DNA from: a virus
Taxonomy: Duplodnaviria; Heunggongvirae; Uroviricota; Caudoviricetes
Length of the DNA stretch: 44,370 nucleotides
IMG/VR virus record: IMGVR_UViG_3300045988_005581
Strand: one strand, 5' to 3'
The position numbers were made by a program, and so were the translations under genes. A model generated the notes under the pieces. That model had not been told where the DNA came from. It made no database searches and was given only the letters and a program-made list of their open reading frames with translations. Shown piece by piece: positions 1 through 44,370 of the stretch (positions are counted from its first letter, which is position 1; each line of letters opens with the position of its first letter).

Positions 1-119
1 ATTTTTTTTATCTATTTTCTGTGATGACTAGTTGACTATTATCCTCGACCCTATTATATTTACTTCATCGACAACGAGAACGGAGTAGAGAGAAATGGGC
101 AACGTATCGACGATAGAAA
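1..119. repeat. Terminal duplication (copy 1), identical to 44252..44370
   Basis: Bases 1..119 match 44252..44370 exactly by eye; the junction lies in the T-run of the terminator at 44231..44260. Implies a unit length of 44,251 bp; the repeat touches both window edges so its true extent is unknown. Confidence 0.9.
32..60 (+). promoter_or_regulatory. sigma70-like promoter TTGACT-N17-TATATT
   Basis: TTGACT at 32-37, 17-bp spacer, TATATT at 55-60; about 35 nt upstream of the first ORF (ATG 95). Confidence 0.5.
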
Positions 120-5683: not shown

Positions 5684-5704
5684 AGCCCCGAAAGGGGCTT
5701 TCTT
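5684..5704 (+). terminator. terminator-like hairpin between portal and head-morphogenesis genes
   Basis: AGCCCC-GAAA-GGGGCT then TTCTT; probably partial or stabilising. Confidence 0.4.
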
Positions 5705-5709
5705 ATAGT

Positions 5710-6786
5710 ATGCTATTAACTTTAGCGCCACAGGGTTTATCTATGAGCTTACTTACATCCCTAATCAGCCATCAGATATGGCTGCAACGCACCGCATCCG
5801 GTGAAGTGAAAGACCTCACGCCGTTCATTCAGGAGATAAGGGATGAAATCAAACGGCAGGTGCTGTTATTCGGTGACGACGGTCGCAGCACTGCGCGACT
5901 GAATAAACTGTTACGCGACCTGGAAGAAGCACTAACCGGTATTACGGGTGACTGGCAAACAAAGCTAACAGACGACCTTAAGGAACTGGCGGCGTACGAG
6001 GCTGAGTGGAACGTAAAGACACTGACCGCCAACGTAGACGCGGAATTTGTTACGCCTACCGCTGAGCAGGTATGGGCCGCTGCCGAGTTTCAACCATTAT
6101 CATTGAGCGACAAGCCCGTTGATTTCACCAAGCTGATGTCTGGATGGGGCGAAACGGAAGTAGCACGTCTTGTAACTGGAGTTAAGATGGGCTTTGTGCA
6201 AGGTCAAACCACACGGCAGATTGTTAAGAATGTTGTTGGCGCTGGTGGACTAGCCGACATCTCAGAACGTAACGCGACTACGGTAATCCGCACCGCGCTG
6301 TCCCACGTATCCAACGAGGCCCGTAACGAGACGTACCGCCAGAACGACGACATCATCGAGAAATATGAGTGGGTGTCAACTTTGGACAGCCGTACCAGCA
6401 CGATTTGCAGGGCCAGAGACGGAATGACGTGGGAAATCGGTAAAGGTCCGATGCCACCAGCCCATCCTAATTGCCGAAGTACCACTGCACCGGTAATCAG
6501 TTCAGAGTTCGACTTCCTTGATAAAGGCGCAAAACGTGCGGCTAAGGGTGCGTACGGCGGTACTCAGGTAAGCGCAGACACCACCTATTACGAGTTCCTG
6601 AAACAACAACCAGCATGGTTTCAGGACCAGGCGATCGGTCCTGTTCGTGGTAAGATTTTCCGTAACAGCGGTATATCGCCGGAAGAGTTTCGCGTAAAAT
6701 CTGTAGATGGTTTCGGGAATCCGCTTACGCTTAAGCAGATGGCGGAACTCGATAAACGTGTTGCTGATTATCTGAAAGGGGATTAA
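5710..6786 (+). CDS. head morphogenesis protein (Mu F / SPP1 gp7-like)
   Basis: Contains TLDSRTSTICRARDGMTWE, matching the conserved D-x-R-T...C...DG signature of Mu F-like minor head proteins as I recall it; sits after the portal gene. Start could be 5710 or 5740. Confidence 0.8.
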   Translation: MLLTLAPQGLSMSLLTSLISHQIWLQRTASGEVKDLTPFIQEIRDEIKRQVLLFGDDGRSTARLNKLLRDLEEALTGITGDWQTKLTDDLKELAAYEAEWNVKTLTANVDAEFVTPTAEQVWAAAEFQPLSLSDKPVDFTKLMSGWGETEVARLVTGVKMGFVQGQTTRQIVKNVVGAGGLADISERNATTVIRTALSHVSNEARNETYRQNDDIIEKYEWVSTLDSRTSTICRARDGMTWEIGKGPMPPAHPNCRSTTAPVISSEFDFLDKGAKRAAKGAYGGTQVSADTTYYEFLKQQPAWFQDQAIGPVRGKIFRNSGISPEEFRVKSVDGFGNPLTLKQMAELDKRVADYLKGD

Positions 6787-7278: not shown

Positions 7279-7480
7279 AACGGAATCTTGTGTTTAAATC
7301 CTGCTCGTGGACGACCCTCAGAACAGTGTCATAATCCCCGTATCTTCCAGGTTCAAATACATCTAATGCCTTGTAAGCAGACATTGCGTCAGGGAAAACC
7401 TGCAGAACCTTTTTAACACGGCACAAGTCACCGTCGAACTCTTCATCGAACTCTTGAACTACTTCGCAAATTGCATACAT
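7277..7480 (-). CDS. hypothetical acidic protein (67 aa), solitary antisense gene
   Basis: ATG at 7480 (minus) preceded by GGGGGTG RBS and a sigma70-like promoter; terminated by the bidirectional terminator. Confidence 0.5.
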   Translation of the reverse strand: MYAICEVVQEFDEEFDGDLCRVKKVLQVFPDAMSAYKALDVFEPGRYGDYDTVLRVVHEQDLNTRFR

Positions 7481-7507
7481 TTTTCACCCCCTGCTTAAGT
7501 TAACTGA

Positions 7508-7536
7508 ATAGTACCCTATTATATTGGGGTGTGCAA
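7508..7536 (-). promoter_or_regulatory. sigma70-like promoter TTGCAC-N17-TACTAT (minus strand) with embedded dyad
   Basis: On the minus strand: TTGCAC (7531-7536), 17 bp, TACTAT (7508-7513); dyad AATAG-N4-CTATT at 7507-7520. About 25 bp upstream of the ATG at 7480. Confidence 0.5.
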
Positions 7537-7602
7537 ACTATTTATTTACTTATTCCAGTTATTCCGCTCAATTGTAAATGTTGGAATAAACTATTCGAAT
7601 AG

Positions 7603-7631
7603 TTGACTTTTCACTAAAAATATGATAAGCT
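7603..7631 (+). promoter_or_regulatory. promoter P_A: TTGACT-N17-TGnTAAGCT (extended -10)
   Basis: TTGACT 7603-7608, 17-bp spacer, TG 7623-7624, TAAGCT 7626-7631. Identical core promoter at 39890..39918. Preceded by the perfect palindrome ACTATTCGAATAGT (7590-7603). Confidence 0.6.
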
Positions 7632-7637
7632 CCACCT

Positions 7638-7838
7638 GAGCTTGTGAAGTATGAACAAGCGACCGCGGCGCGGGCAGGTAACGGAGCGGGACGTAAGTCC
7701 TGAGTGTAGTTACGCTGACGCGTTCGGAAGGGCCATACTCTATTGCTTGTGTAAAAAGTAACAGGTTTACTTAGATTACGCCGTTTCTATGTTTAAATGA
7801 TAAGGACTAGCGCCCTGCTTTAAGGCAGGGCTTTACTT
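7638..7838 (+). ncRNA. candidate short terminated transcript / structured leader (element A)
   Basis: Region between P_A and the terminator at 7812..7838; shares a 43-nt identical 5' arm (7626-7668) and a 23-nt identical 3' arm (7723-7745) with element B at 39913-40032. Not shown to be transcribed. Confidence 0.35.
7812..7838 (+). terminator. intrinsic terminator 18 nt upstream of the spanin start
   Basis: GCCCTGC (7812-7818) / GCAGGGC (7825-7831), loop TTTAAG, then TTTACTT. Confidence 0.6.
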
Positions 7839-17019: not shown

Positions 17020-17061
17020 AACATAACTCCTGATTTGAGATAACATCGTTGGTGTAAGTGA

Positions 17062-17090
17062 ATAGTACGCTATTATATCAGGGTGTGCAA
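17062..17090 (-). promoter_or_regulatory. sigma70-like promoter TTGCAC-N17-TACTAT (minus strand) with embedded dyad
   Basis: TTGCAC = 17085-17090, TACTAT = 17062-17067 on the minus strand; dyad AATAG-N4-CTATT 17061-17074; near-identical to the element at 7505-7540. Confidence 0.5.
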
Positions 17091-17197
17091 GTAGTATGTT
17101 AGAATAATTTTGCGCCTAGTGTCGCACACGAAAAGCGGGTGGTTCCCGTCTGGCGCATTTCCTTTAACCAGTAACCTCTTAACCAAAGGATTAAAGA

Positions 17198-30093: not shown

Positions 30094-30381
30094 CTAACTA
30101 TAATAGTTTGCTATTAGGTCGTCAACCTGTTTAAACGAACCAACGACAAAAACATTTGCACCGCGTTTACGCATCCGCTCATGCTCACGTAACTGGTGCG
30201 GGTCTGGCTTCGTGTTTTCGTCTTTCTTAACCTCGACAAACCAGATGATACCGCCAGGGAGAATTACCAGCAGGTCGGGAGCGCCGGAACGTCCTTCGTA
30301 GGAGAGCTTGCGAACGAGGCCGCCGAGGGCCTCGAATCGCTCTTTTGCGTATTTCTGTATGCGCCCCTCAGGCGTACTCAT
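30094..30381 (-). CDS. VRR-NUC domain nuclease
   Basis: 95 aa with PDLLVILP...VEVKK, the PD-(D/E)xK-type signature typical of VRR-NUC proteins. Confidence 0.7.
   Translation of the reverse strand: MSTPEGRIQKYAKERFEALGGLVRKLSYEGRSGAPDLLVILPGGIIWFVEVKKDENTKPDPHQLREHERMRKRGANVFVVGSFKQVDDLIANYYS
30097..30125 (-). promoter_or_regulatory. sigma70-like promoter TTGACG-N17-TATAGT (minus strand) with embedded dyad
   Basis: On the minus strand: TTGACG = 30120-30125, TATAGT = 30097-30102; dyad AATAG-N4-CTATT 30102-30115. Confidence 0.5.
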
Positions 30382-33450: not shown

Positions 33451-33505
33451 TTCTCGATTCCTCAGTTTTCAGTTTACTCCGGGAGCTGCCCGGCCAGTGA
33501 TTAGA

Positions 33506-33534
33506 ACTATAATAGCTAACTATTCAGGTGTCAA
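33506..33534 (-). promoter_or_regulatory. sigma70-like promoter TTGACA-N17-TATAGT (minus strand) with embedded dyad
   Basis: On the minus strand: TTGACA = 33529-33534, TATAGT = 33506-33511; dyad AATAG-N4-CTATT 33511-33524. Confidence 0.55.
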
Positions 33535-36055: not shown

Positions 36056-36283
36056 TTACTCGCCGTCGCCTTCTGTAAGGCTATCGTCTATTAATTCAAA
36101 TTTACCGTTTGGGTGTTGAATAGCTTCTTGCCCGCAATGGTCGCAGACAACAAGTTTATCGAACCCATCAAACTCGTCCCCGACTACGCAAGAAAGTACA
36201 AATTTATGTTTTGTGCACACTTCCTGCGATTCTCCGAAAATTGCTAGAAAACCTTTAGCTATGGCTCCCGTTATTGTGTTCAT
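36056..36283 (-). CDS. hypothetical zinc-ribbon-like protein (75 aa)
   Basis: Two Cys pairs (C..C ... CDHC); first gene downstream of the minus-strand promoter at 36312..36340. Confidence 0.5.
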   Translation of the reverse strand: MNTITGAIAKGFLAIFGESQEVCTKHKFVLSCVVGDEFDGFDKLVVCDHCGQEAIQHPNGKFELIDDSLTEGDGE

Positions 36284-36311
36284 ATCCGCCCCTCTCGTTT
36301 GGTATGGGCTA

Positions 36312-36340
36312 ACTATAATAGCGAACTATTCACATGTCAA
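36312..36340 (-). promoter_or_regulatory. sigma70-like promoter TTGACA-N17-TATAGT (minus strand) with embedded dyad
   Basis: On the minus strand: TTGACA = 36335-36340, TATAGT = 36312-36317; dyad AATAG-N4-CTATT 36317-36330. A second imperfect dyad AATAT-N4-CTATT lies at 36361-36374. Confidence 0.55.
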
Positions 36341-36404
36341 TGGGCTTTTCTAAAATAATTAATATGGTACTATTCACATATCAACTGACTAAGGAGTAAT
36401 TGAC

Positions 36405-36620
36405 ATGCAACCATCTGAACTAGGTATCCGTGTAGAACAACGCCGTAAAGAACTCGGCATCTCCCAGCGCAGTTTGGCGGCCCTGACCGGCGTTTCCCAG
36501 GGCGTGATTAACCAACTGGCACTTGGAGTAACTCAGGACGTCCGCTCGGCAACGCTGTTCAAACTGGCGGAAGTTCTGGAAGTAGACGCCAAGTGGCTGG
36601 CGTTAGGTGAAGGGGCTTAA
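36405..36620 (+). CDS. Cro/CI-type HTH transcriptional regulator (XRE family)
   Basis: 71 aa with LGISQRSLAALTGVSQGVINQL helix-turn-helix; RBS AAGGAG; the only rightward gene inside the leftward replication module, divergent from it. Confidence 0.75.
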   Translation: MQPSELGIRVEQRRKELGISQRSLAALTGVSQGVINQLALGVTQDVRSATLFKLAEVLEVDAKWLALGEGA

Positions 36621-36635
36621 AGCCCCTTTCTTTTT
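36611..36635. terminator. intrinsic terminator overlapping the HTH gene stop
   Basis: AGGGGCT (36611-36617) / AGCCCCT (36621-36627), loop TAA (which is the stop codon), then TTCTTTTT. Confidence 0.6.
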
Positions 36636-36948
36636 ATAGCAACTTATCGAGTTCTTCCAAATTCTTAATAGTGTGTTGCACGTTCAGGTACTGAATCCAG
36701 GCGAGAAACCACGCACTTACAGGAAAACTTATAACAATAGTTATCGATATAATTAATTTGAAAAGGCACTTTATAATCTCTGCCAGCGTCATGTCTAAAA
36801 TGTCTTTAAACTCCGCAAAAATCCCCGCTGCATACACACAAAAAGTCCACCAGTTGTTGCTTACAGCGGAAACACATGTCAGGTATGACGGGCGGTATCC
36901 TGCCTTCACTGCTTTAAACGGGTTATCTATAAAATCGTAAATATTCAT
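36634..36948 (-). CDS. hypothetical membrane protein (104 aa)
   Basis: Two or three hydrophobic segments; ATGA-coupled to the end of the primase-helicase gene. Confidence 0.5.
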   Translation of the reverse strand: MNIYDFIDNPFKAVKAGYRPSYLTCVSAVSNNWWTFCVYAAGIFAEFKDILDMTLAEIIKCLFKLIISITIVISFPVSAWFLAWIQYLNVQHTIKNLEELDKLL

Positions 36949-39197
36949 TCCAAATCCTCCTCGGTCACTGTCAGCATTTCATTCGGCTCGTATATTGTCT
37001 TCGGAATCTTGTTATCTGTTATCATGGTGTTCAGTCTGTAACGGCCTGGGATTATCTGATTGTTTTCGTCAGTACCCGGAACAAGATACCCAGCCTCAAC
37101 CATTTTCTTAATCTTCCCGCGTTCTATGGCTTCTTTGGAGTTAAACGCCTTTGCGTTGGGGTCAGACTGCGCGAGCTTATTCGCTGCGGATACCGTGATG
37201 CCCTCGTTGCCGTTGTAGGTCCCCTCCGCCAGTTCAAACGCCGCGAGTATCGTGGCCTCGGAACTGTTGACGGCGTTCTCTATGGTTTTACGTACATTTT
37301 GTTTACCTTCGTTAGTTAACCCTTCTTCCCTCTCTTTCTCCTCGTCGGTCTTGAATGGCTCGAAGCCCCACGGCATCAATACAAGCGCCTTGTGCGGCTC
37401 AGGCAGGTCGAGGTTTACTATTGTGCCGTATTCCTCTGTGCTACCGAGGAACTCAACCGCGCGGTACTCTTTCGGCGGCGGTGCTTCACGGAACTGTACA
37501 GACTCCAGTACCATGCCAACCGTCTTCTGTTGCGGACCGTGCTTAAATTTAGAGTGGTATACGTTTATCTGACGGTCGGTAGCGCGTTCGATTGTCAGTT
37601 CCACGTCGACACCCGCATACAATGCTCCACTGCCGCGGGCTTTCTTTCCGCCCTTCGGAGTATGGTGAACGACACCGACAGCGGCTTTAGTTGCATCGCG
37701 CACTTCTTTCAGGATGGCGATAACTTTACCCATACCGATTGCCGTTGATGAACTGTTCTCGTCGAACTTATCAATCGTCAGGGCCAGCGTCTGGTTAAGG
37801 GTGTCGAAGGCAACCATGCCAATAGGTTCATCCCCCGCGGTTTCGCGCATCCTGCGGATTAGAGCTGGAATTTTTTTATCACCATGCGTAGCGAGTATTT
37901 CGCCCATATCGATGACATGTACATAATCTTTACCTTCCTCGCCATATTTAGCCGCGAGTGCATCAATACGTGTTCGTGTAGCTGCACCACCCTCGCCGTC
38001 AATATAGAAATGGTGGCAACGTTGGGTGTCAGCCCCCGCAAACCGGTACCCGGCGGCGCTCAGGTACATCATCCCCAGCGTATAGAATGATTTGTACGTG
38101 CCGGATTCCCCGACAATATCCCAGATACAATCCGACGGCATGTACCCCTCAACGACGAAATCAGCCTTTACCGGTTCTGGTAACTCGTCCTCTTCTTCAA
38201 GGTCTTCCAGCGTGCAAGTTACAGGCTCCTCGTTCTCTGTGCGGTGCAGTTCTTCAATCTCTTCATCCGGTAAATCAGGCAGAGCCGCACGAATGCTGTT
38301 AATACTGATAGGTTGCTTGTCTACGTTAAGCTCGTCTGGCAGGCCGCACATACGCAGGGCCAAATGCTGTCGGCGGTTAAGCTCGGTGCAAGCGCCGTTG
38401 TTTGTATGCTGGCACACAAAGCGCACTTCTTTACCATCAAGCATGATGCTTGTGGAGCCTTTGCCTGTATGCAGATGTTCGTTAGGGCATGGGACTTCGT
38501 ACCCGCGCCCGGAAGATAAAGCGTCAAGGCCAAGCTCGGCTTCGCAGAAATGCGCTATATCAGCATTAAGCCCATACTCATCGGCGGCAAGTGTCTTAAC
38601 TTCACGTTTACTCAACCCCATCTCTTCGGCTTTCTTGATGTACCGCTCGGCACGGATAACACGCCCTTCTGTAACCGTTATCTTTGACTCTCTATGTGGC
38701 AGATAGATAAGGCGGTTGCCGTCTTCCGTGCAGTGGTCACGCAAGGCTTCATCTATTTCTAACTCTGCACAAATAGCCCGTTGGACCATCCACGCGTCGT
38801 TAGAGTTAAACGGCGTGCGAGCCGGAACCAGAACGCGGAAGGCGTAATCACCGTTTTTACACACATGCTGATGCGATGCCGTTGTATGCAGAATATTGAA
38901 GAACGGTGCGTTCTTGAATTTGCGGGTAAGGTCGCGGTACTGAGTACGGTTGAGATGGTCAAAATCGAACTTAACCACACTGTCTTCCAGGATAGCGTTT
39001 TTACGGCGACCCCCAACAGGCGCAATAGCTTTCTGCTTAATCTTGGCAGCGTCGTACTCTTCCTTAGACCACGACGGATCCACGGATAAACGCTTCGATG
39101 TATCGCAGACATACTCCACAAACTGCTCGAGCGGCATCTCACGCGCTACAGGGTTTTTATCGAATGTGTTGCGCAGCGTTGCAAAAACAATATTCAT
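36945..39197 (-). CDS. primase-polymerase / replicative helicase fusion protein
   Basis: 750 aa; N-terminal region with AEP-like VVKFDFDH and Cys/His cluster; C-terminal RecA-like domain with Walker A GESGTYKS and Walker B-like VAFDTLNQ. Confidence 0.8.
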   Translation of the reverse strand: MNIVFATLRNTFDKNPVAREMPLEQFVEYVCDTSKRLSVDPSWSKEEYDAAKIKQKAIAPVGGRRKNAILEDSVVKFDFDHLNRTQYRDLTRKFKNAPFFNILHTTASHQHVCKNGDYAFRVLVPARTPFNSNDAWMVQRAICAELEIDEALRDHCTEDGNRLIYLPHRESKITVTEGRVIRAERYIKKAEEMGLSKREVKTLAADEYGLNADIAHFCEAELGLDALSSGRGYEVPCPNEHLHTGKGSTSIMLDGKEVRFVCQHTNNGACTELNRRQHLALRMCGLPDELNVDKQPISINSIRAALPDLPDEEIEELHRTENEEPVTCTLEDLEEEDELPEPVKADFVVEGYMPSDCIWDIVGESGTYKSFYTLGMMYLSAAGYRFAGADTQRCHHFYIDGEGGAATRTRIDALAAKYGEEGKDYVHVIDMGEILATHGDKKIPALIRRMRETAGDEPIGMVAFDTLNQTLALTIDKFDENSSSTAIGMGKVIAILKEVRDATKAAVGVVHHTPKGGKKARGSGALYAGVDVELTIERATDRQINVYHSKFKHGPQQKTVGMVLESVQFREAPPPKEYRAVEFLGSTEEYGTIVNLDLPEPHKALVLMPWGFEPFKTDEEKEREEGLTNEGKQNVRKTIENAVNSSEATILAAFELAEGTYNGNEGITVSAANKLAQSDPNAKAFNSKEAIERGKIKKMVEAGYLVPGTDENNQIIPGRYRLNTMITDNKIPKTIYEPNEMLTVTEEDLE

Positions 39198-39322
39198 TTC
39201 TTTTTCTCCGCACGTTCTAAGGCTTCCTGCATACGGCGCATTGCGCGGTTCATCTTTACCGGTGCGAAGAAGTCAGCGCCGTGTTTCTGGCGGCGTAGCT
39301 GTGGAACTATTAACTTTGTCAT
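39194..39322 (-). CDS. possible 42-aa basic peptide
   Basis: ATG 39322 with AAGGA RBS; stop overlaps the primase-helicase ATG (ATGA). Not in ORF track; speculative. Confidence 0.3.
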   Translation of the reverse strand: MTKLIVPQLRRQKHGADFFAPVKMNRAMRRMQEALERAEKKK

Positions 39323-39390
39323 TGTATAATCCTTATGCTTACTTTGATGATTTGTACTTTAGCCCCGACGTTCTGGCGTTGGGGTTTCTT

Positions 39391-39603
39391 TTACTTAACG
39401 CCCGCAATCCACGCACGCTCCGAAGCGTAGAAACGACACTTACTTAAAGCCTCGATTGGCATCTTAATAATGCGTGTCGGTTCCAACAAATGATTAGGCT
39501 TACATATTTCCGCATAGAATCCGCTGTCAGTAATTTCCGGCGCAAACTTAAACCGGTATTTAACTTTACAGTTTTCAAAGTAACAACCCATACGCCCAAT
39601 CAT
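39391..39603 (-). CDS. hypothetical protein (70 aa)
   Basis: ORF-track ORF, ATGA-coupled to the upstream HTH gene. Confidence 0.5.
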   Translation of the reverse strand: MIGRMGCYFENCKVKYRFKFAPEITDSGFYAEICKPNHLLEPTRIIKMPIEALSKCRFYASERAWIAGVK

Positions 39604-39782
39604 TTCACGTTCTCCTTAATCCATGCTTCAACTTTATTACGGTCAAATGTTCCTGGTAAACGGCGACCCATAACCTTAATACAGCAATCAGGGAATTTAC
39701 CGCTGCGCAACCAGTTATTAATTGTTTGACGTGTCACCCCGATACGTTCAGCCACTTCATTCTGTGTCATGTAATGCTGCAT
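39600..39782 (-). CDS. AlpA-like HTH DNA-binding protein
   Basis: MTQNEVAERIGVTRQTINNWLRSGKFP resembles AlpA/excisionase-type HTH proteins; ATG 39782 with AGGAG RBS (tool start 39854 upstream). First gene of the leftward module. Confidence 0.6.
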   Translation of the reverse strand: MQHYMTQNEVAERIGVTRQTINNWLRSGKFPDCCIKVMGRRLPGTFDRNKVEAWIKENVK

Positions 39783-39813
39783 TTTTATATCTCCTGTTTG
39801 TTTGGTGAAAACG

Positions 39814-39842
39814 AGTATAGGATAGCGTGAATGTAAAAGCAA
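39814..39842 (-). promoter_or_regulatory. candidate promoter TTGCTT-N17-TATACT (minus strand) for the leftward module
   Basis: On the minus strand: TTGCTT = 39837-39842, TATACT = 39814-39819; about 30 nt upstream of ATG 39782. Confidence 0.4.
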
Positions 39843-39889
39843 CCAAAACACCACACAAAGTTACTGATATACAAAAGATGCTAATGGTA

Positions 39890-39918
39890 TTGACTTTTAC
39901 TAAGAAATGTGCTAAGCT
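39890..39918 (+). promoter_or_regulatory. promoter P_B: TTGACT-N17-TGnTAAGCT (extended -10)
   Basis: TTGACT 39890-39895, 17-bp spacer, TG 39910-39911, TAAGCT 39913-39918; same hexamers and spacing as P_A at 7603..7631. Confidence 0.6.
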
Positions 39919-39924
39919 CCACCT

Positions 39925-40160
39925 GAGCTTGTGAAGTATGAACAAGCGACCGCGGTGCGGCAGGAAACGGAGCGGTGCGTCAGCACTGAGTGTAGTGTCG
40001 CTGCCTGCATTCGGAAGGGCCATACTCTATTGTAAATCCCGTCTAAATAACCCAAGTCACTAATAATTAAAAGTTTCTATAGTTGCCGTAAGCAAGGTAG
40101 AGAGTACTTCACTCCGCTGGGGTGGGCTAAAGCCCACCCGCTGCGTTGCGTACTCTTTAA
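39925..40160 (+). ncRNA. candidate short terminated transcript / structured leader (element B)
   Basis: Paralogue of element A: identical 43-nt and 23-nt arms flanking a 54-nt core with about 12 substitutions and one indel; followed by GC hairpin GGTGGGC-TAAA-GCCCACC (40121-40138) and a U-rich stretch. Not shown to be transcribed. Confidence 0.35.
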
Positions 40161-40198: not shown

Positions 40199-40227
40199 TC
40201 GCACACCCCAACATAATAGGATACTAT
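40199..40227 (+). promoter_or_regulatory. sigma70-like promoter TCGCAC-N17-TACTAT with embedded dyad
   Basis: TCGCAC 40199-40204, TACTAT 40222-40227; dyad AATAG-N4-CTATT 40215-40228; same element as 7505-7540 in reverse orientation. Confidence 0.5.
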
Positions 40228-40261
40228 TCACTTATCGGAACGAGACAGAGGAGTGATGGTT

Positions 40262-40447
40262 ATGTTTAAGAAGGGTCAGTTGGTTAAAACAAAACGCGGC
40301 GGACAGTACGTAATAGTTACCCAGAATGAGGATGAATATAGTACCGCTGTAGACGTATGGGGTCTTGTACGAAAGAAACATGGTTACGCTTTCAGAGATA
40401 ATTTAACACTCATCGGCAACAATTTTAAATTCAAAGGGGTGAAGTGA
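40262..40447 (+). CDS. hypothetical small protein (61 aa)
   Basis: ATG 40262 with GAGGAG RBS at correct spacing (tool start 40253 is GTG); first ORF of a translationally coupled chain. Confidence 0.55.
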   Translation: MFKKGQLVKTKRGGQYVIVTQNEDEYSTAVDVWGLVRKKHGYAFRDNLTLIGNNFKFKGVK

Positions 40448-41333: not shown

Positions 41334-41362
41334 TTGCACACTGGGATAGAATAGACTACTAT
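41334..41362 (+). promoter_or_regulatory. sigma70-like promoter TTGCAC-N17-TACTAT with embedded dyad
   Basis: TTGCAC 41334-41339, TACTAT 41357-41362; perfect dyad GAATAG-N4-CTATTC at 41349-41364. Confidence 0.55.
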
Positions 41363-41392
41363 TCATTTACACAGACGGGAGGAGAGACAGAG

Positions 41393-41542
41393 ATGGTTAC
41401 TTTGATGGTTATGGAATTCGAAAACAGCGCAGCAACTTACCGTGAGATGACTATGGCGCAGGCATATCACCTGGCCTCAAACGGCAACTTCTACAAGGCT
41501 CAAATCATCAATGAGTTCGGGGTAATTGACTATGAATTTTAG
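41393..41542 (+). CDS. hypothetical small protein (49 aa)
   Basis: ATG 41393 with GGGAGGAGAG RBS; not in ORF track. Confidence 0.4.
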   Translation: MVTLMVMEFENSAATYREMTMAQAYHLASNGNFYKAQIINEFGVIDYEF

Positions 41543-44230: not shown

Positions 44231-44260
44231 CCCGGCCCTGACCCAGCCGGGATTTTTTTT
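44231..44260 (+). terminator. strong intrinsic terminator after the lysis cassette
   Basis: CCCGGC (44231-44236) / GCCGGG (44246-44251), 9-nt loop, then eight consecutive T (44253-44260). Confidence 0.75.
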
Positions 44261-44370
44261 ATCTATTTTCTGTGATGACTAGTTGACTATTATCCTCGAC
44301 CCTATTATATTTACTTCATCGACAACGAGAACGGAGTAGAGAGAAATGGGCAACGTATCGACGATAGAAA
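44252..44370. repeat. Terminal duplication (copy 2), identical to 1..119
   Basis: Exact repeat of the window start, including the promoter at 32..60 and the first 25 nt of the first ORF. Confidence 0.9.

What the first reader, a model, noticed from the sequence alone, without database searches (positions are those of the whole stretch)
36284..36404. Divergent control region with two dyad sites between a Cro-like gene and the replication module
The only rightward gene inside the leftward replication module is a 71-aa Cro/CI-type HTH protein (36405..36620). Its 120-bp upstream region holds a strong leftward promoter (36312..36340) and two dyad sites (36317-36330 perfect, 36361-36374 imperfect) about 44 bp apart centre to centre. 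The rightward promoter for the HTH gene appears weak (TACTAT -10 at 36368-36373, poor -35), as expected for an autoregulated or activated promoter. The layout resembles a lambda OR-type switch, unusual in a phage with no integrase.
Basis: partly seen in the sequence, partly recalled or inferred. Interest (0 to 1): 0.5.

Follow-up and report, generated by a model that had tools for sequence, protein, structure and literature searches.

The report
Cro-like repressor and its phage-wide operators
The region is a real two-way promoter region of a virulent E. coli phage (Kagunavirus): a small Cro-like protein most likely binds a 14-base palindrome here and at about nine other promoters, so it looks like a genome-wide brake on early transcription, not a lambda-style lysis/lysogeny switch.

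Summary
Positions 36284-36404 hold a near-consensus leftward sigma-70 promoter (TTGACA-17-TATAGT). They also hold two copies of the dyad AATAG-N4-CTATT (36317-36330 perfect, 36361-36374 one mismatch), upstream of a 71-aa HTH_3 gene with a 434-Cro-like fold.

New points:
- **Genome-wide motif.** The dyad is the most over-represented palindrome in the whole 44.25-kb genome: 7 exact and 11 within one mismatch, against 0.05 and 1.2 expected. Almost all copies sit on core promoters.
- **Conservation.** The half-sites are invariant in 38 Kagunavirus variants while the central 4 bp vary. Orthologous sites persist in Jerseyvirus.
- **Covariation.** Cornellvirus, whose HTH has a different recognition helix, carries TATTA-N6-TAATA instead.
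- **The gene's own promoter.** It is TGnTACTAT, an extended -10 that lies under dyad 2.

Best reading: a Cro-type dimer represses the leftward replication operon, its own gene and the other dyad-bearing promoters.

It is not a lambda OR-type bistable switch. There is no CI partner, no integrase, only two sites 44 bp apart, and no prophage copies in 5,426 E. coli genomes. The motif was already published as a PHIRE "phage promoter" consensus. Protein binding is inferred, not shown.

The parts
36405..36620 (+). 71-aa Cro-like HTH_3 gene, the proposed repressor
   Evidence: ORF. Pfam HTH_3 at E=5.4e-12. phmmer against PDB gives 434 Cro at E=1.9e-4, aligned end to end. The AF2 model has five helices, pLDDT 78. 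Foldseek finds SinR-N, C.AhdI and 434 Cro at TM 0.74-0.80.
36391..36396 (+). Shine-Dalgarno AAGGAG of the HTH gene
   Evidence: Read from the sequence. Nearly invariant: 37 of 38 Kagunavirus variants.
36365..36373 (+). Extended -10 TGgTACTAT of the HTH gene's own promoter; inferred transcription start about 36380
   Evidence: TG and TACTAT are invariant and only the n varies (G/C/A) in 38 variants. Jerseyvirus orthologues have TTGCAC/TTGCGT-17-TACTAT without TGn. The same TACTAT -10 occurs in four other 'class B' promoters, TTGCAC-17-TACTAT.
36361..36374 (.). Operator O2, AATATGGTACTATT (one mismatch); covers about -19 to -6 of the HTH promoter
   Evidence: The mismatch is conserved in all 38 variants.
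36317..36330 (.). Operator O1, AATAGCGAACTATT (perfect); lies in the spacer, about -25 to -12, of the leftward promoter
   Evidence: Half-sites are invariant or nearly so, while N4 positions 1-2 and the 3-4 nt next to the -35 are hypervariable and include an indel.
36312..36340 (-). Strong leftward sigma-70 promoter TTGACA-17-TATAGT, driving the 75-aa gene and the replication/recombination operon
   Evidence: 11 of 12 matches. Both hexamers are invariant in 38 variants. Two paralogous promoter-plus-dyad modules lie at 33505-33534 and 30096-30125 (family D3).
36329..36356 (+). Alternative + strand promoter candidate TTCACA-16-TAAAAT; doubtful
   Evidence: 10 of 12 matches. The -35 varies, and TAAAAT is lost in the L052-L054 lineage.
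36609..36629 (+). Intrinsic terminator of the HTH transcript; the T-run is on the + strand only
36056..36283 (-). First gene of the leftward operon in this phage (75 aa, unknown function). It is a mosaic insert: conservation with most relatives starts at about 36291.
33511..33524 (.). Exact dyad in the leftward promoter TTGACA-17-TATAGT, upstream of the gp2.5-like SSB gene
   Evidence: Orthologous site in Jerseyvirus at L048:30682.
30102..30115 (.). Exact dyad in the leftward promoter TTGACG-17-TATAGT, at the end of the resolvase gene
   Evidence: Orthologue at L048:27369.
40215..40228 (.). Exact dyad over the -10 of a rightward class B promoter (TCGCAC-17-TACTAT), upstream of the early gene at 40262
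   Evidence: Orthologue at L048:36450.
41350..41363 (.). Exact dyad over the -10 of a rightward class B promoter (TTGCAC-17-TACTAT), upstream of the gene at 41393
   Evidence: Orthologue at L048:37545.
7507..7520 (.). Exact dyad over the -10 of a leftward class B promoter, upstream of the 67-aa gene 7480..7280
17061..17074 (.). Exact dyad over the -10 of a leftward class B promoter, upstream of the SbcD-like exonuclease island
   Evidence: Orthologue at L048:15200.
7598..7611 (.). One-mismatch dyad overlapping the -35 of TTGACT-17-TAAGCT; uncertain regulon member
   Evidence: The paralogous promoter at 39890 lacks the dyad.
5704..5717 (.). One-mismatch dyad between the portal and head-morphogenesis genes; uncertain member
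44278..44291 (.). One-mismatch dyad overlapping the -35 of TTGACT-17-TATATT, downstream of the lysis genes. It is the same sequence as 27-40 because of the terminal overlap of the assembly. Uncertain member.
   Evidence: Orthologue at L048:40519.

Best explanation
The window is a complete genome of a virulent Kagunavirus (Guernseyvirinae). Positions 36284-36404 are a divergent promoter/operator region.

The 71-aa protein is a single-domain, 434-Cro-like HTH. It most likely binds as a dimer to the 14-bp dyad AATAG-N4-CTATT.

- **O1** (36317-36330, perfect) lies in the spacer of the strong leftward promoter TTGACA-17-TATAGT. A bound dimer would exclude RNA polymerase and turn down the leftward replication/recombination operon.
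- **O2** (36361-36374, one conserved mismatch) lies over the extended -10 (TGgTACTAT) of the gene's own weak promoter. This would give negative autoregulation at a higher protein level.

The same dyad overlaps the core of six more promoters exactly, and three more with one mismatch, on both strands. The protein would therefore act as a genome-wide brake or feedback on early and middle sigma-70 transcription during lytic growth. This is the job Cro does in lambdoid phages, but here without a CI partner and without lysogeny.

**Shown:**
- the sequence features and their statistical excess;
- their position on promoters;
- their conservation pattern;
- the fold of the protein.

**Inferred:**
- that this protein is the binder;
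- that it binds as a dimer;
- that binding represses;
- the transcription start sites.
For: 1. **Excess.** 12 hits within one mismatch against 1.14 expected. It is the top palindrome of all 5-gap-5 dyads in the window, in Bas70 and in Jerseyvirus Shelanagig. Counts are 7 exact and 11 within one mismatch, against 0.05 and 1.2 under a Markov null.
2. **Location.** In the annotated relative Bas70, 8 of 12 sites are centred in the 5% of the genome that is intergenic (binomial p about 2e-8). The sites sit at fixed registers of sigma-70-like promoters upstream of genes in the correct orientation.
3. **Footprint.** Across 38 distinct Kagunavirus variants the half-sites, the -35 and the -10 are invariant, while the centre of the N4 and the adjacent spacer vary in sequence and length. 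Jerseyvirus keeps the dyad at orthologous promoters with different N4 and flanks.
4. **Covariation.**
   - Two Cornellviruses (HTH helix TQSAISH, against SQGVINQ here) have no K-type dyads. They have TATTA-N6-TAATA instead: 3 exact copies in each, and 8 and 7 within one mismatch against 0.85 expected (the expectation was computed for Shemara only).
   - At the two orthologous leftward promoters examined in Shemara, the promoter-unconstrained half-site changes from CTATT to CTAAT.
5. **Other DNA-binding candidates fit less well.**
   - The HTH_17 protein is absent from phiEap-2, which keeps the dyad.
   - The NinH-like protein is about 70% identical in all four lineages, and its putative HTH stretch (identified by me from resemblance to lambda NinH) differs by only two residues in Cornellvirus, where the dyad differs.
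6. **The protein.** HTH_3, 71 aa, five-helix fold, closest in sequence to 434 Cro and 434 repressor. Established knowledge: 434 Cro is also 71 aa and binds 14-bp dyad operators.
7. **Proximity.** Two dyads flank this gene's own promoter, the usual signature of an autoregulated repressor.
8. **Virulent lifestyle.** No integrase or CI. No match in 5,426 complete E. coli genomes. Among species-representative genomes only a contaminating phage contig was found.
Against: - No binding, footprint or reporter data exist, here or in the literature searched.
- The covariation rests on a single evolutionary switch (Cornellvirus).
- A more distant relative, Klebsiella phage VLCpiS11a, has an HTH homologue but no detectable over-represented dyad.
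- Kagunavirus and Jerseyvirus HTH proteins are only about 49% identical, with different recognition-helix residues, yet share the same dyad. This is possible, since 434 Cro and 434 repressor do the same, but it is not predicted.
- The half-sites resemble -10 hexamers and overlap them. Part of the conservation could therefore be promoter constraint.
- Three of the one-mismatch sites (7598, 5704, 27/44278) may be chance or different in kind.
- In the only time-course RNA-seq of a Kagunavirus, the gene I take to be this one (004, next to the AAA gene) is classed 'middle'. That neither proves nor disproves the role.
Confidence: 0.6

Rival explanations
1. The dyads are real operators, but another factor binds them. 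Candidates are another small phage protein (the NinH/Fis-like protein at 1727-1963, the HTH_17 protein at 39600-39782, or an unannotated early protein) or a host protein. The 71-aa HTH would then regulate something else.
For: - Nothing ties the protein to the DNA directly.
- The HTH_17 gene is reported as an early gene, assuming it is gene 008 of the RNA-seq paper.
- The NinH-like protein is conserved in all lineages.
- Kagunavirus and Jerseyvirus share the dyad although their HTH_3 proteins are only 49% identical.
Against: - HTH_17 is missing from phiEap-2 and Cornellvirus, while phiEap-2 keeps the dyad.
- The putative HTH stretch of the NinH-like protein (ETGLNEMTIAKY here, ETGLSELTIAKY in Shemara) differs by only two residues in Cornellvirus, where the dyad changed.
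- A 14-bp palindrome suits a Cro-type dimer.
- Two sites bracket the HTH_3 promoter, and none was seen at the putative HTH_17 promoter.
- I know of no E. coli regulator with this consensus (from memory, not tested).
Confidence: 0.2
2. The motif has no dedicated binding protein. It is a phage-type promoter element, or a by-product of overlapping -10-like hexamers (TATAAT, TATAGT, TACTAT) in duplicated promoter modules. This is the published PHIRE reading ('phage promoters').
For: - PHIRE-based genome papers report the same consensus as phage promoters: tgAATAGTa-ccTATTat-T in fBC-Eco01 and TAATAGTACCCTATTATGTT in SGP-C.
- The half-sites overlap or abut -10 hexamers.
- The three leftward modules are 77-90% identical paralogues.
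Against: - The phage has no RNA polymerase gene and no unassigned ORF large enough for one.
- The dyad sits in two different registers and both orientations relative to the -10: about -25..-12 in class A and -19..-6 in class B. A core-promoter element would not do this.
- The half-site inside the spacer has no known promoter role, yet it is invariant while its neighbours vary.
- The symmetric change of both half-sites in Cornellvirus is what a dimeric protein would impose.
Confidence: 0.1
3. The region is a true immunity-type bistable switch, as the first reader and the SGP-C paper propose. The HTH would act as Cro or repressor in a lysis/(pseudo)lysogeny decision, possibly with episomal carriage.
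For: - Cro/CI-type fold and divergent promoters.
- The SGP-C paper reports immune 'lysogens' of a related Salmonella phage and calls the orthologue Cro.
- O1 is centred about 40 bp upstream of the start of the alternative + promoter. A CI-like activator could use that position (inference).
Against: - No second repressor gene, no integrase, no partition or plasmid-maintenance genes.
- Operators are dispersed over about 11 promoters rather than forming OL/OR clusters.
- Zero matches in 5,426 complete E. coli genomes, including their plasmids. None among species representatives except a contaminating phage contig.
- The family is described as strictly lytic.
- The alternative + promoter is not conserved.
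Confidence: 0.07

Closest known systems
Phage 434 Cro (and the N-terminal domain of 434 repressor) with its 14-bp operators
   Same: - Same length (71 aa) and the same five-helix HTH_3 fold.
- Best sequence match among solved phage repressors: E about 2e-4, 35-39% identity in structural alignments.
- 14-bp dyad sites overlapping sigma-70 promoters, with a variable centre (the 434 side of this comparison is established knowledge).
- Inferred autoregulation of its own promoter.
   Different: - Different half-site: AATAG, against ACAA in 434.
- No partner CI.
- Two sites 44 bp apart instead of three adjacent ones.
- About 11 sites spread over the genome.
- The phage is virulent.
Lambda OR (CI/Cro, PR/PRM) bistable switch
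   Same: Divergent promoters separated by operator dyads, with a small HTH gene on one side. The operators differ in quality (perfect and imperfect), so graded occupancy is possible.
   Different: No CI, cII, integrase or cooperativity domain. The leftward transcript encodes replication/recombination genes, not a repressor. There is no evidence of bistability or lysogeny.
Dispersed-operator repressor regulons of temperate phages (P1 C1; mycobacteriophage L5 gp71 'stoperators')
   Same: One small repressor with many sites scattered over the whole phage genome, many of them on promoters (established knowledge).
   Different: Those sites are asymmetric and are bound by monomers. They maintain lysogeny. 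Here the sites are palindromic and the phage has no lysogenic state.
Restriction-modification controller (C) proteins, e.g. C.AhdI and C.BclI
   Same: Very similar fold and size (Foldseek TM 0.73-0.79). Small autoregulatory HTH_3 dimers that time gene expression through dyads at their own promoter.
   Different: C-boxes are two adjacent dyads immediately upstream of the C gene. They activate and then repress. Here there are no R-M genes, the sites are 44 bp apart, and they recur genome-wide.

Membership tests
Cro/CI-type (XRE, Pfam HTH_3) single-domain phage repressor | Five-helix HTH_3 DNA-binding domain | tested here: met
   Pfam HTH_3 at E=5.4e-12. AF2 model with helices 5-17, 21-28, 32-39, 48-57, 62-66. 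Foldseek to 2cro at TM 0.74/0.80.
Cro/CI-type (XRE, Pfam HTH_3) single-domain phage repressor | Small protein without a C-terminal oligomerisation or peptidase domain (Cro-like rather than CI-like) | tested here: met
   71 aa, aligned end to end with the 71-aa 434 Cro.
Cro/CI-type (XRE, Pfam HTH_3) single-domain phage repressor | Binds as a dimer to dyad-symmetric operators that overlap promoters | not testable with these tools
   Suitable dyads exist on promoters and covary with the HTH lineage. Binding itself is not shown.
Cro/CI-type (XRE, Pfam HTH_3) single-domain phage repressor | Operators at its own promoter (autoregulation) | tested here: met
   O2 covers the TGnTACTAT -10 of the gene's promoter. 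The functional consequence is inferred.
Lambda OR-type bistable immunity switch | Divergently transcribed CI-type repressor gene opposite cro | tested here: not met
   The left neighbour is a 75-aa protein with no Pfam hit, belonging to a PHROG of unknown function and absent from most relatives. Replication genes follow it.
Lambda OR-type bistable immunity switch | Three adjacent operators with graded affinity between the two promoters | tested here: not met
   Only two dyads, 44 bp apart (43 in another lineage, 55 in Jerseyvirus), each on its own promoter.
Lambda OR-type bistable immunity switch | Associated lysogeny functions (integrase or plasmid maintenance) and existence of prophages | tested here: not met
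   None annotated or found. No match in 5,426 complete E. coli genomes. Only a contaminating phage contig among 185,579 species representatives.
Dispersed-operator phage repressor regulon (P1 C1 / L5 gp71 type) | Many operators scattered over the genome | tested here: met
   7 exact and 4 one-mismatch sites between 27 and 41363.
Dispersed-operator phage repressor regulon (P1 C1 / L5 gp71 type) | Asymmetric sites bound by a monomeric lysogeny repressor | tested here: not met
   The sites are palindromic 5+4+5, and the phage shows no lysogeny.
R-M controller (C) protein system | Paired adjacent C-boxes directly upstream of the C gene, with neighbouring restriction and methylase genes | tested here: not met
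   The dyads are 44 bp apart. The neighbours are replication genes.

The most novel reading that the evidence does not exclude
A 'Cro without CI' design. In strictly virulent Guernseyvirinae, a single 71-aa Cro-like dimer occupies one palindrome placed on nearly every early and middle sigma-70 promoter, including its own. It would act as the phage's global transcription timer or homeostat. Its specificity has co-evolved with the whole set of sites: AATAG-N4-CTATT in Kagunavirus, Jerseyvirus and phiEap-2, and TATTA-N6-TAATA in Cornellvirus. Late genes would escape by other means, possibly through the structured leader RNA seen at 7629-7750.
Probability: 0.45. Interest if true: 0.55.

Novelty: new member of a known kind. 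Interest (0 to 1): 0.4.

Why it matters
- **Phage-therapy screening.** More than 500 deposited Guernseyvirinae genomes annotate this gene as 'Cro', 'repressor' or 'DicA'. Many of these phages are candidates for therapy or food biocontrol. At least one paper used the gene to argue for a temperate lifestyle. If it is instead a lytic-cycle regulator with a defined operator set, and the family has no prophage forms, that removes a false safety flag.
- **Correcting the literature.** Published genome notes assign the repeated motif to a phage RNA polymerase that these phages do not encode.
- **A testable regulon.** The work predicts about 7-11 sites and gives a natural specificity variant in Cornellvirus.
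- **A possible tool.** It offers a compact repressor/operator/promoter set in a phage group already used as a synthetic-biology chassis.

Tried and rejected
- **Palindrome ATTCACATGTCAAT (36328-36341) as the operator.** Rejected: its centre is hypervariable and carries an indel in relatives. It is just the leftward -35 next to TTCACA.
- **9-bp inverted repeat CATGTCAAT / ATTGACATG (36333-41 / 36399-407) as a third half-site or a -35.** Rejected: the right arm varies (CTGACATG, TTGTCATG, ATGACATG, CATTATG).
- **+ strand promoter TTCACA-16-TAAAAT as the main HTH promoter.** Downgraded: not conserved.
- **RNA element in the region.** No Rfam match beyond chance.
- **IMG/VR hits at 35-44% identity (L041 and others).** L041, the only one examined, is an unrelated temperate immunity region with its own repeats. 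The weaker hits (L042-L047) were not examined. None was used for covariation.
- **Klebsiella phage VLCpiS11a.** HTH homologue present, but no over-represented dyad found.
- **Supplementary tables of the K1B4 RNA-seq paper.** The part held as text (the file was cut when stored) shows only host gene annotation, so the identity of genes 004 and 008 rests on gene order.
- **The search for homologous proteins.** Returned only close relatives. The large representative search was not used.
- **Host regulators.** I considered ArgR, OxyR, CRP, Fis and IHF consensus sequences from memory. None fits, but this was not tested.

Full report
**What the window is.** The window is a whole phage genome of about 44.25 kb; bases 1-119 repeat at 44252-44370. 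It is 90-98% identical to Escherichia Kagunavirus phages (Guernseyvirinae). The closest is vB_EcoM_SHAK7858. I transferred a gene map from the annotated relative Bas70. It shows structural genes rightward, a long leftward replication/recombination module (about 27.2-40.2 kb), and then small rightward early genes and the lysis genes. The 71-aa gene at 36405..36620 is the only credible rightward gene inside the leftward module.

**The observation.**
- The leftward promoter is TTGACA (36340-36335), 17 bp, TATAGT (36317-36312): 11 of 12 matches.
- Dyad 1 is AATAGCGAACTATT (36317-36330). Dyad 2 is AATATGGTACTATT (36361-36374). Both lie inside a 25-nt direct repeat with 44-bp spacing.
- The protein matches Pfam HTH_3 at E=5.4e-12.
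- It aligns end to end with the 71-aa 434 Cro.
- Its AlphaFold2 model is a five-helix bundle with pLDDT 78.
- The best structural matches are the SinR N-domain, C.AhdI and 434 Cro, at TM 0.74-0.80.

**The dyad is a genome-wide signal, not a local one.**
- AATAGNNNNCTATT with at most one mismatch occurs 12 times in the window against 1.14 expected.
- An unbiased count of every 5-gap-5 palindrome puts AATAG-N4-CTATT first in this genome, in Bas70 and in the Jerseyvirus Shelanagig: 7, 7 and 5 exact copies. No dyad exceeds 3 copies in shuffles. One search gives 7 exact and 11 within one mismatch, against 0.05 and 1.2 expected.
- In Bas70, 8 of 12 sites are centred in the 5% of the genome that is intergenic (p about 2e-8). 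Two more lie in dubious 30-38-aa ORFs.

**Two promoter classes.** Read in context, the sites fall into two classes.
- **Class A** (30102, 33511, 36317; all leftward): TTGAC(A/G)-N4-AATAG-N4-CTATT-ATAGTT. The dyad lies in the 17-bp spacer, at about -25 to -12.
- **Class B** (7507 and 17061 leftward; 40215 and 41350 rightward): TTGCAC-17-TACTAT. The dyad covers the -10, at about -19 to -6, some 45-50 nt upstream of a start codon.

Dyad 2 of the finding is a class B element that lacks the -35. One palindrome, in two registers and both orientations on core promoters, is what an operator looks like. It is not what a promoter element looks like.

**Comparative footprint.** I compared 38 distinct Kagunavirus versions of the intergenic region.
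- TATAATAG, CTATT, TGTCAA and the -10 are invariant or nearly so.
- The first two bases of the N4, and the 3-4 bases between CTATT and the -35, vary freely and include an indel.
- The spacer half-site is therefore conserved between two variable stretches, although a sigma-70 spacer has no known sequence requirement.
- The block around dyad 2 (AATTAATATGnTACTATTCACATATCAA) is almost invariant. Only the n of TGn changes (G, C, A).
- Jerseyvirus orthologues have TTGCAC/TTGCGT-17-TACTAT and no TGn.
In Kagunavirus an extended -10 compensates for the missing -35.
- The alternative + strand promoter found by the scan (TTCACA-16-TAAAAT) is not conserved.
- Jerseyvirus keeps dyads at the orthologous promoters with different N4 and flanks.

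**Who binds it.** No experiment exists, so this step is inference.
- The HTH_3 gene is present in every Guernseyvirinae lineage I examined.
- The HTH_17 'excisionase-like' protein (39600-39782) is present only in Kagunavirus and Jerseyvirus. phiEap-2 lacks it and still has the dyad: 1 exact copy and 10 within one mismatch, against 0.8 expected.
- The NinH/Fis-like protein is about 70% identical everywhere. Its putative HTH stretch differs by only two residues in Cornellvirus.
- In two Cornellviruses (Shemara, PhiSTP1) the K-type dyad is absent (0 sites). TATTA-N6-TAATA takes its place at orthologous promoters: 3 exact copies, and 7-8 within one mismatch against 0.85 expected.
- This is a symmetric change of the central base of each half-site. 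It goes with an HTH only 39% identical, whose recognition helix reads TQSAISH instead of SQGVINQ.
- At the two orthologous leftward promoters examined in Shemara, the unconstrained half-site reads CTAAT instead of CTATT.
- This is a single evolutionary event. A more distant Klebsiella phage shows no clear dyad. The link is therefore likely, not proven.

**Mechanism proposed.** A Cro-type dimer bound at O1 would block the strong leftward promoter. Bound at the weaker O2, it would block its own promoter. Bound at the other dyads, it would turn down the early rightward operons, the internal promoters of the replication module and two leftward islands. The result would be a dose-dependent brake on early and middle transcription. 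The one published time course classes the gene next to the AAA helicase-primase as 'middle', and an HTH gene four positions away (probably HTH_17) as 'early'. The gene identities there are inferred from gene order only.

**Why it is not a lambda OR switch.**
- There is no CI-type gene opposite. The left neighbour is a mosaic 75-aa gene absent from most relatives; homology with them begins at about 36291.
- No integrase was found in the mapped or the unmapped ORFs.
- There are two sites rather than three.
- The operators are dispersed.
- There are no Kagunavirus-like sequences in 5,426 complete E. coli genomes or their plasmids. A scan of species representatives found only a contaminating Jerseyvirus contig.
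- In Cornellvirus and phiEap-2 the HTH gene simply heads the rightward operon that contains the helicase-primase. Its isolated position in Kagunavirus and Jerseyvirus is explained by an inversion of the primase block.

**What was known.** The motif has been printed before as a PHIRE 'phage-specific promoter' consensus, in the fBC-Eco01 paper (PMC9825357) and the SGP-C paper (PMC8790156). One of these ascribes it to a phage RNA polymerase that these genomes do not encode. GenBank records call the gene Cro, repressor or DicA. I found no paper that connects the two, maps the sites onto promoters, or tests binding.

**Verdict.** The finding is a sound, ordinary-in-kind regulatory region: a Cro-type repressor with dyad operators. 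Its worthwhile twist is a conserved genome-wide regulon in a virulent phage family. Interest is moderate.

Noticed in passing
window 7603-7750 and 39890-40037 (+): A direct repeat of about 145 nt (89-96% identical). Each copy begins with a TTGACT-17-TAAGCT promoter followed by a conserved GC-rich leader. The leader folds into a long hairpin with 5 covarying pairs across 9 variants. A covariance model finds both copies in the window, one in Bas70 and one in Jerseyvirus Shelanagig (L048:5821-5928, E about 9e-6), always upstream of the spanin/scaffold/capsid genes. There is no Rfam match. Deposited annotations place small ORFs on it. It may be a cis-acting leader RNA, possibly a put-like antiterminator; this is untested.
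   Followed up: partly
window 17109-17173 (+): A borderline Rfam hit to int-alpA RNA (RF02996): 36.6 bits against a gathering score of 35.8. It lies in the divergent region between the SbcD-like island and the tail assembly chaperone gene.
   Followed up: no
window 36634-39860 compared with L051 (Shemara) and L049 (phiEap-2): The helicase-primase block is inverted in Kagunavirus and Jerseyvirus relative to Cornellvirus and phiEap-2, where it lies downstream of, and co-oriented with, the HTH gene. In the window the HTH gene ends in a terminator with a T-run on the + strand only (36609-36629). Leftward primase-operon transcripts may therefore read antisense through the HTH gene.
   Followed up: partly
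L051 and L069 (Cornellvirus Shemara, PhiSTP1): These phages have no AATAG-N4-CTATT sites at all. They have TATTA-N6-TAATA at orthologous promoters instead: a natural specificity variant of the regulon.
   Followed up: yes
window 7507/17061/40215/41350 flanks: Class B promoters share an extended -35 region, TTGCACAC(C), that goes well beyond the sigma-70 consensus. It may be a second recognition element, for example for an activator.
   Followed up: no
window 7550-7604: The divergent region upstream of the late promoter holds TTATTCC twice (7550-7556, 7559-7565), GGAATAA (7583-7589), and a perfect 16-bp palindrome AACTATTCGAATAGTT (7589-7604) made of the same half-sites in the opposite arrangement. 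phiEap-2 has GAATAA-N-TTATTC four times; the two copies seen in printed context lie in the homologous region.
   Followed up: no
window 36201-36311: The 5' part of the 75-aa gene, together with its ribosome-binding site and leader up to the -10, is 83% identical to a segment in T7-like Kayfunavirus podophages (hits H73-H77). Most Kagunaviruses lack the gene, and their homology resumes at about 36291. This is a mosaic junction placed exactly at the Shine-Dalgarno sequence.
   Followed up: no
window 1-119 = 44252-44370: An exact 119-bp terminal duplication. It is probably an assembly overlap of a circularly permuted or terminally redundant genome. The dyad at 27-40 is therefore the same site as 44278-44291.
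   Followed up: yes
L070 (Taishania pollutisoli scaffold22): A Flavobacteriia genome assembly contains an 18,987-bp contig. The 11.9 kb of it that I examined looks like Jerseyvirus phage DNA: its HTH protein is identical to that of Salmonella phage Kenya-K53 and it carries the same dyads. Probable contamination.
   Followed up: partly
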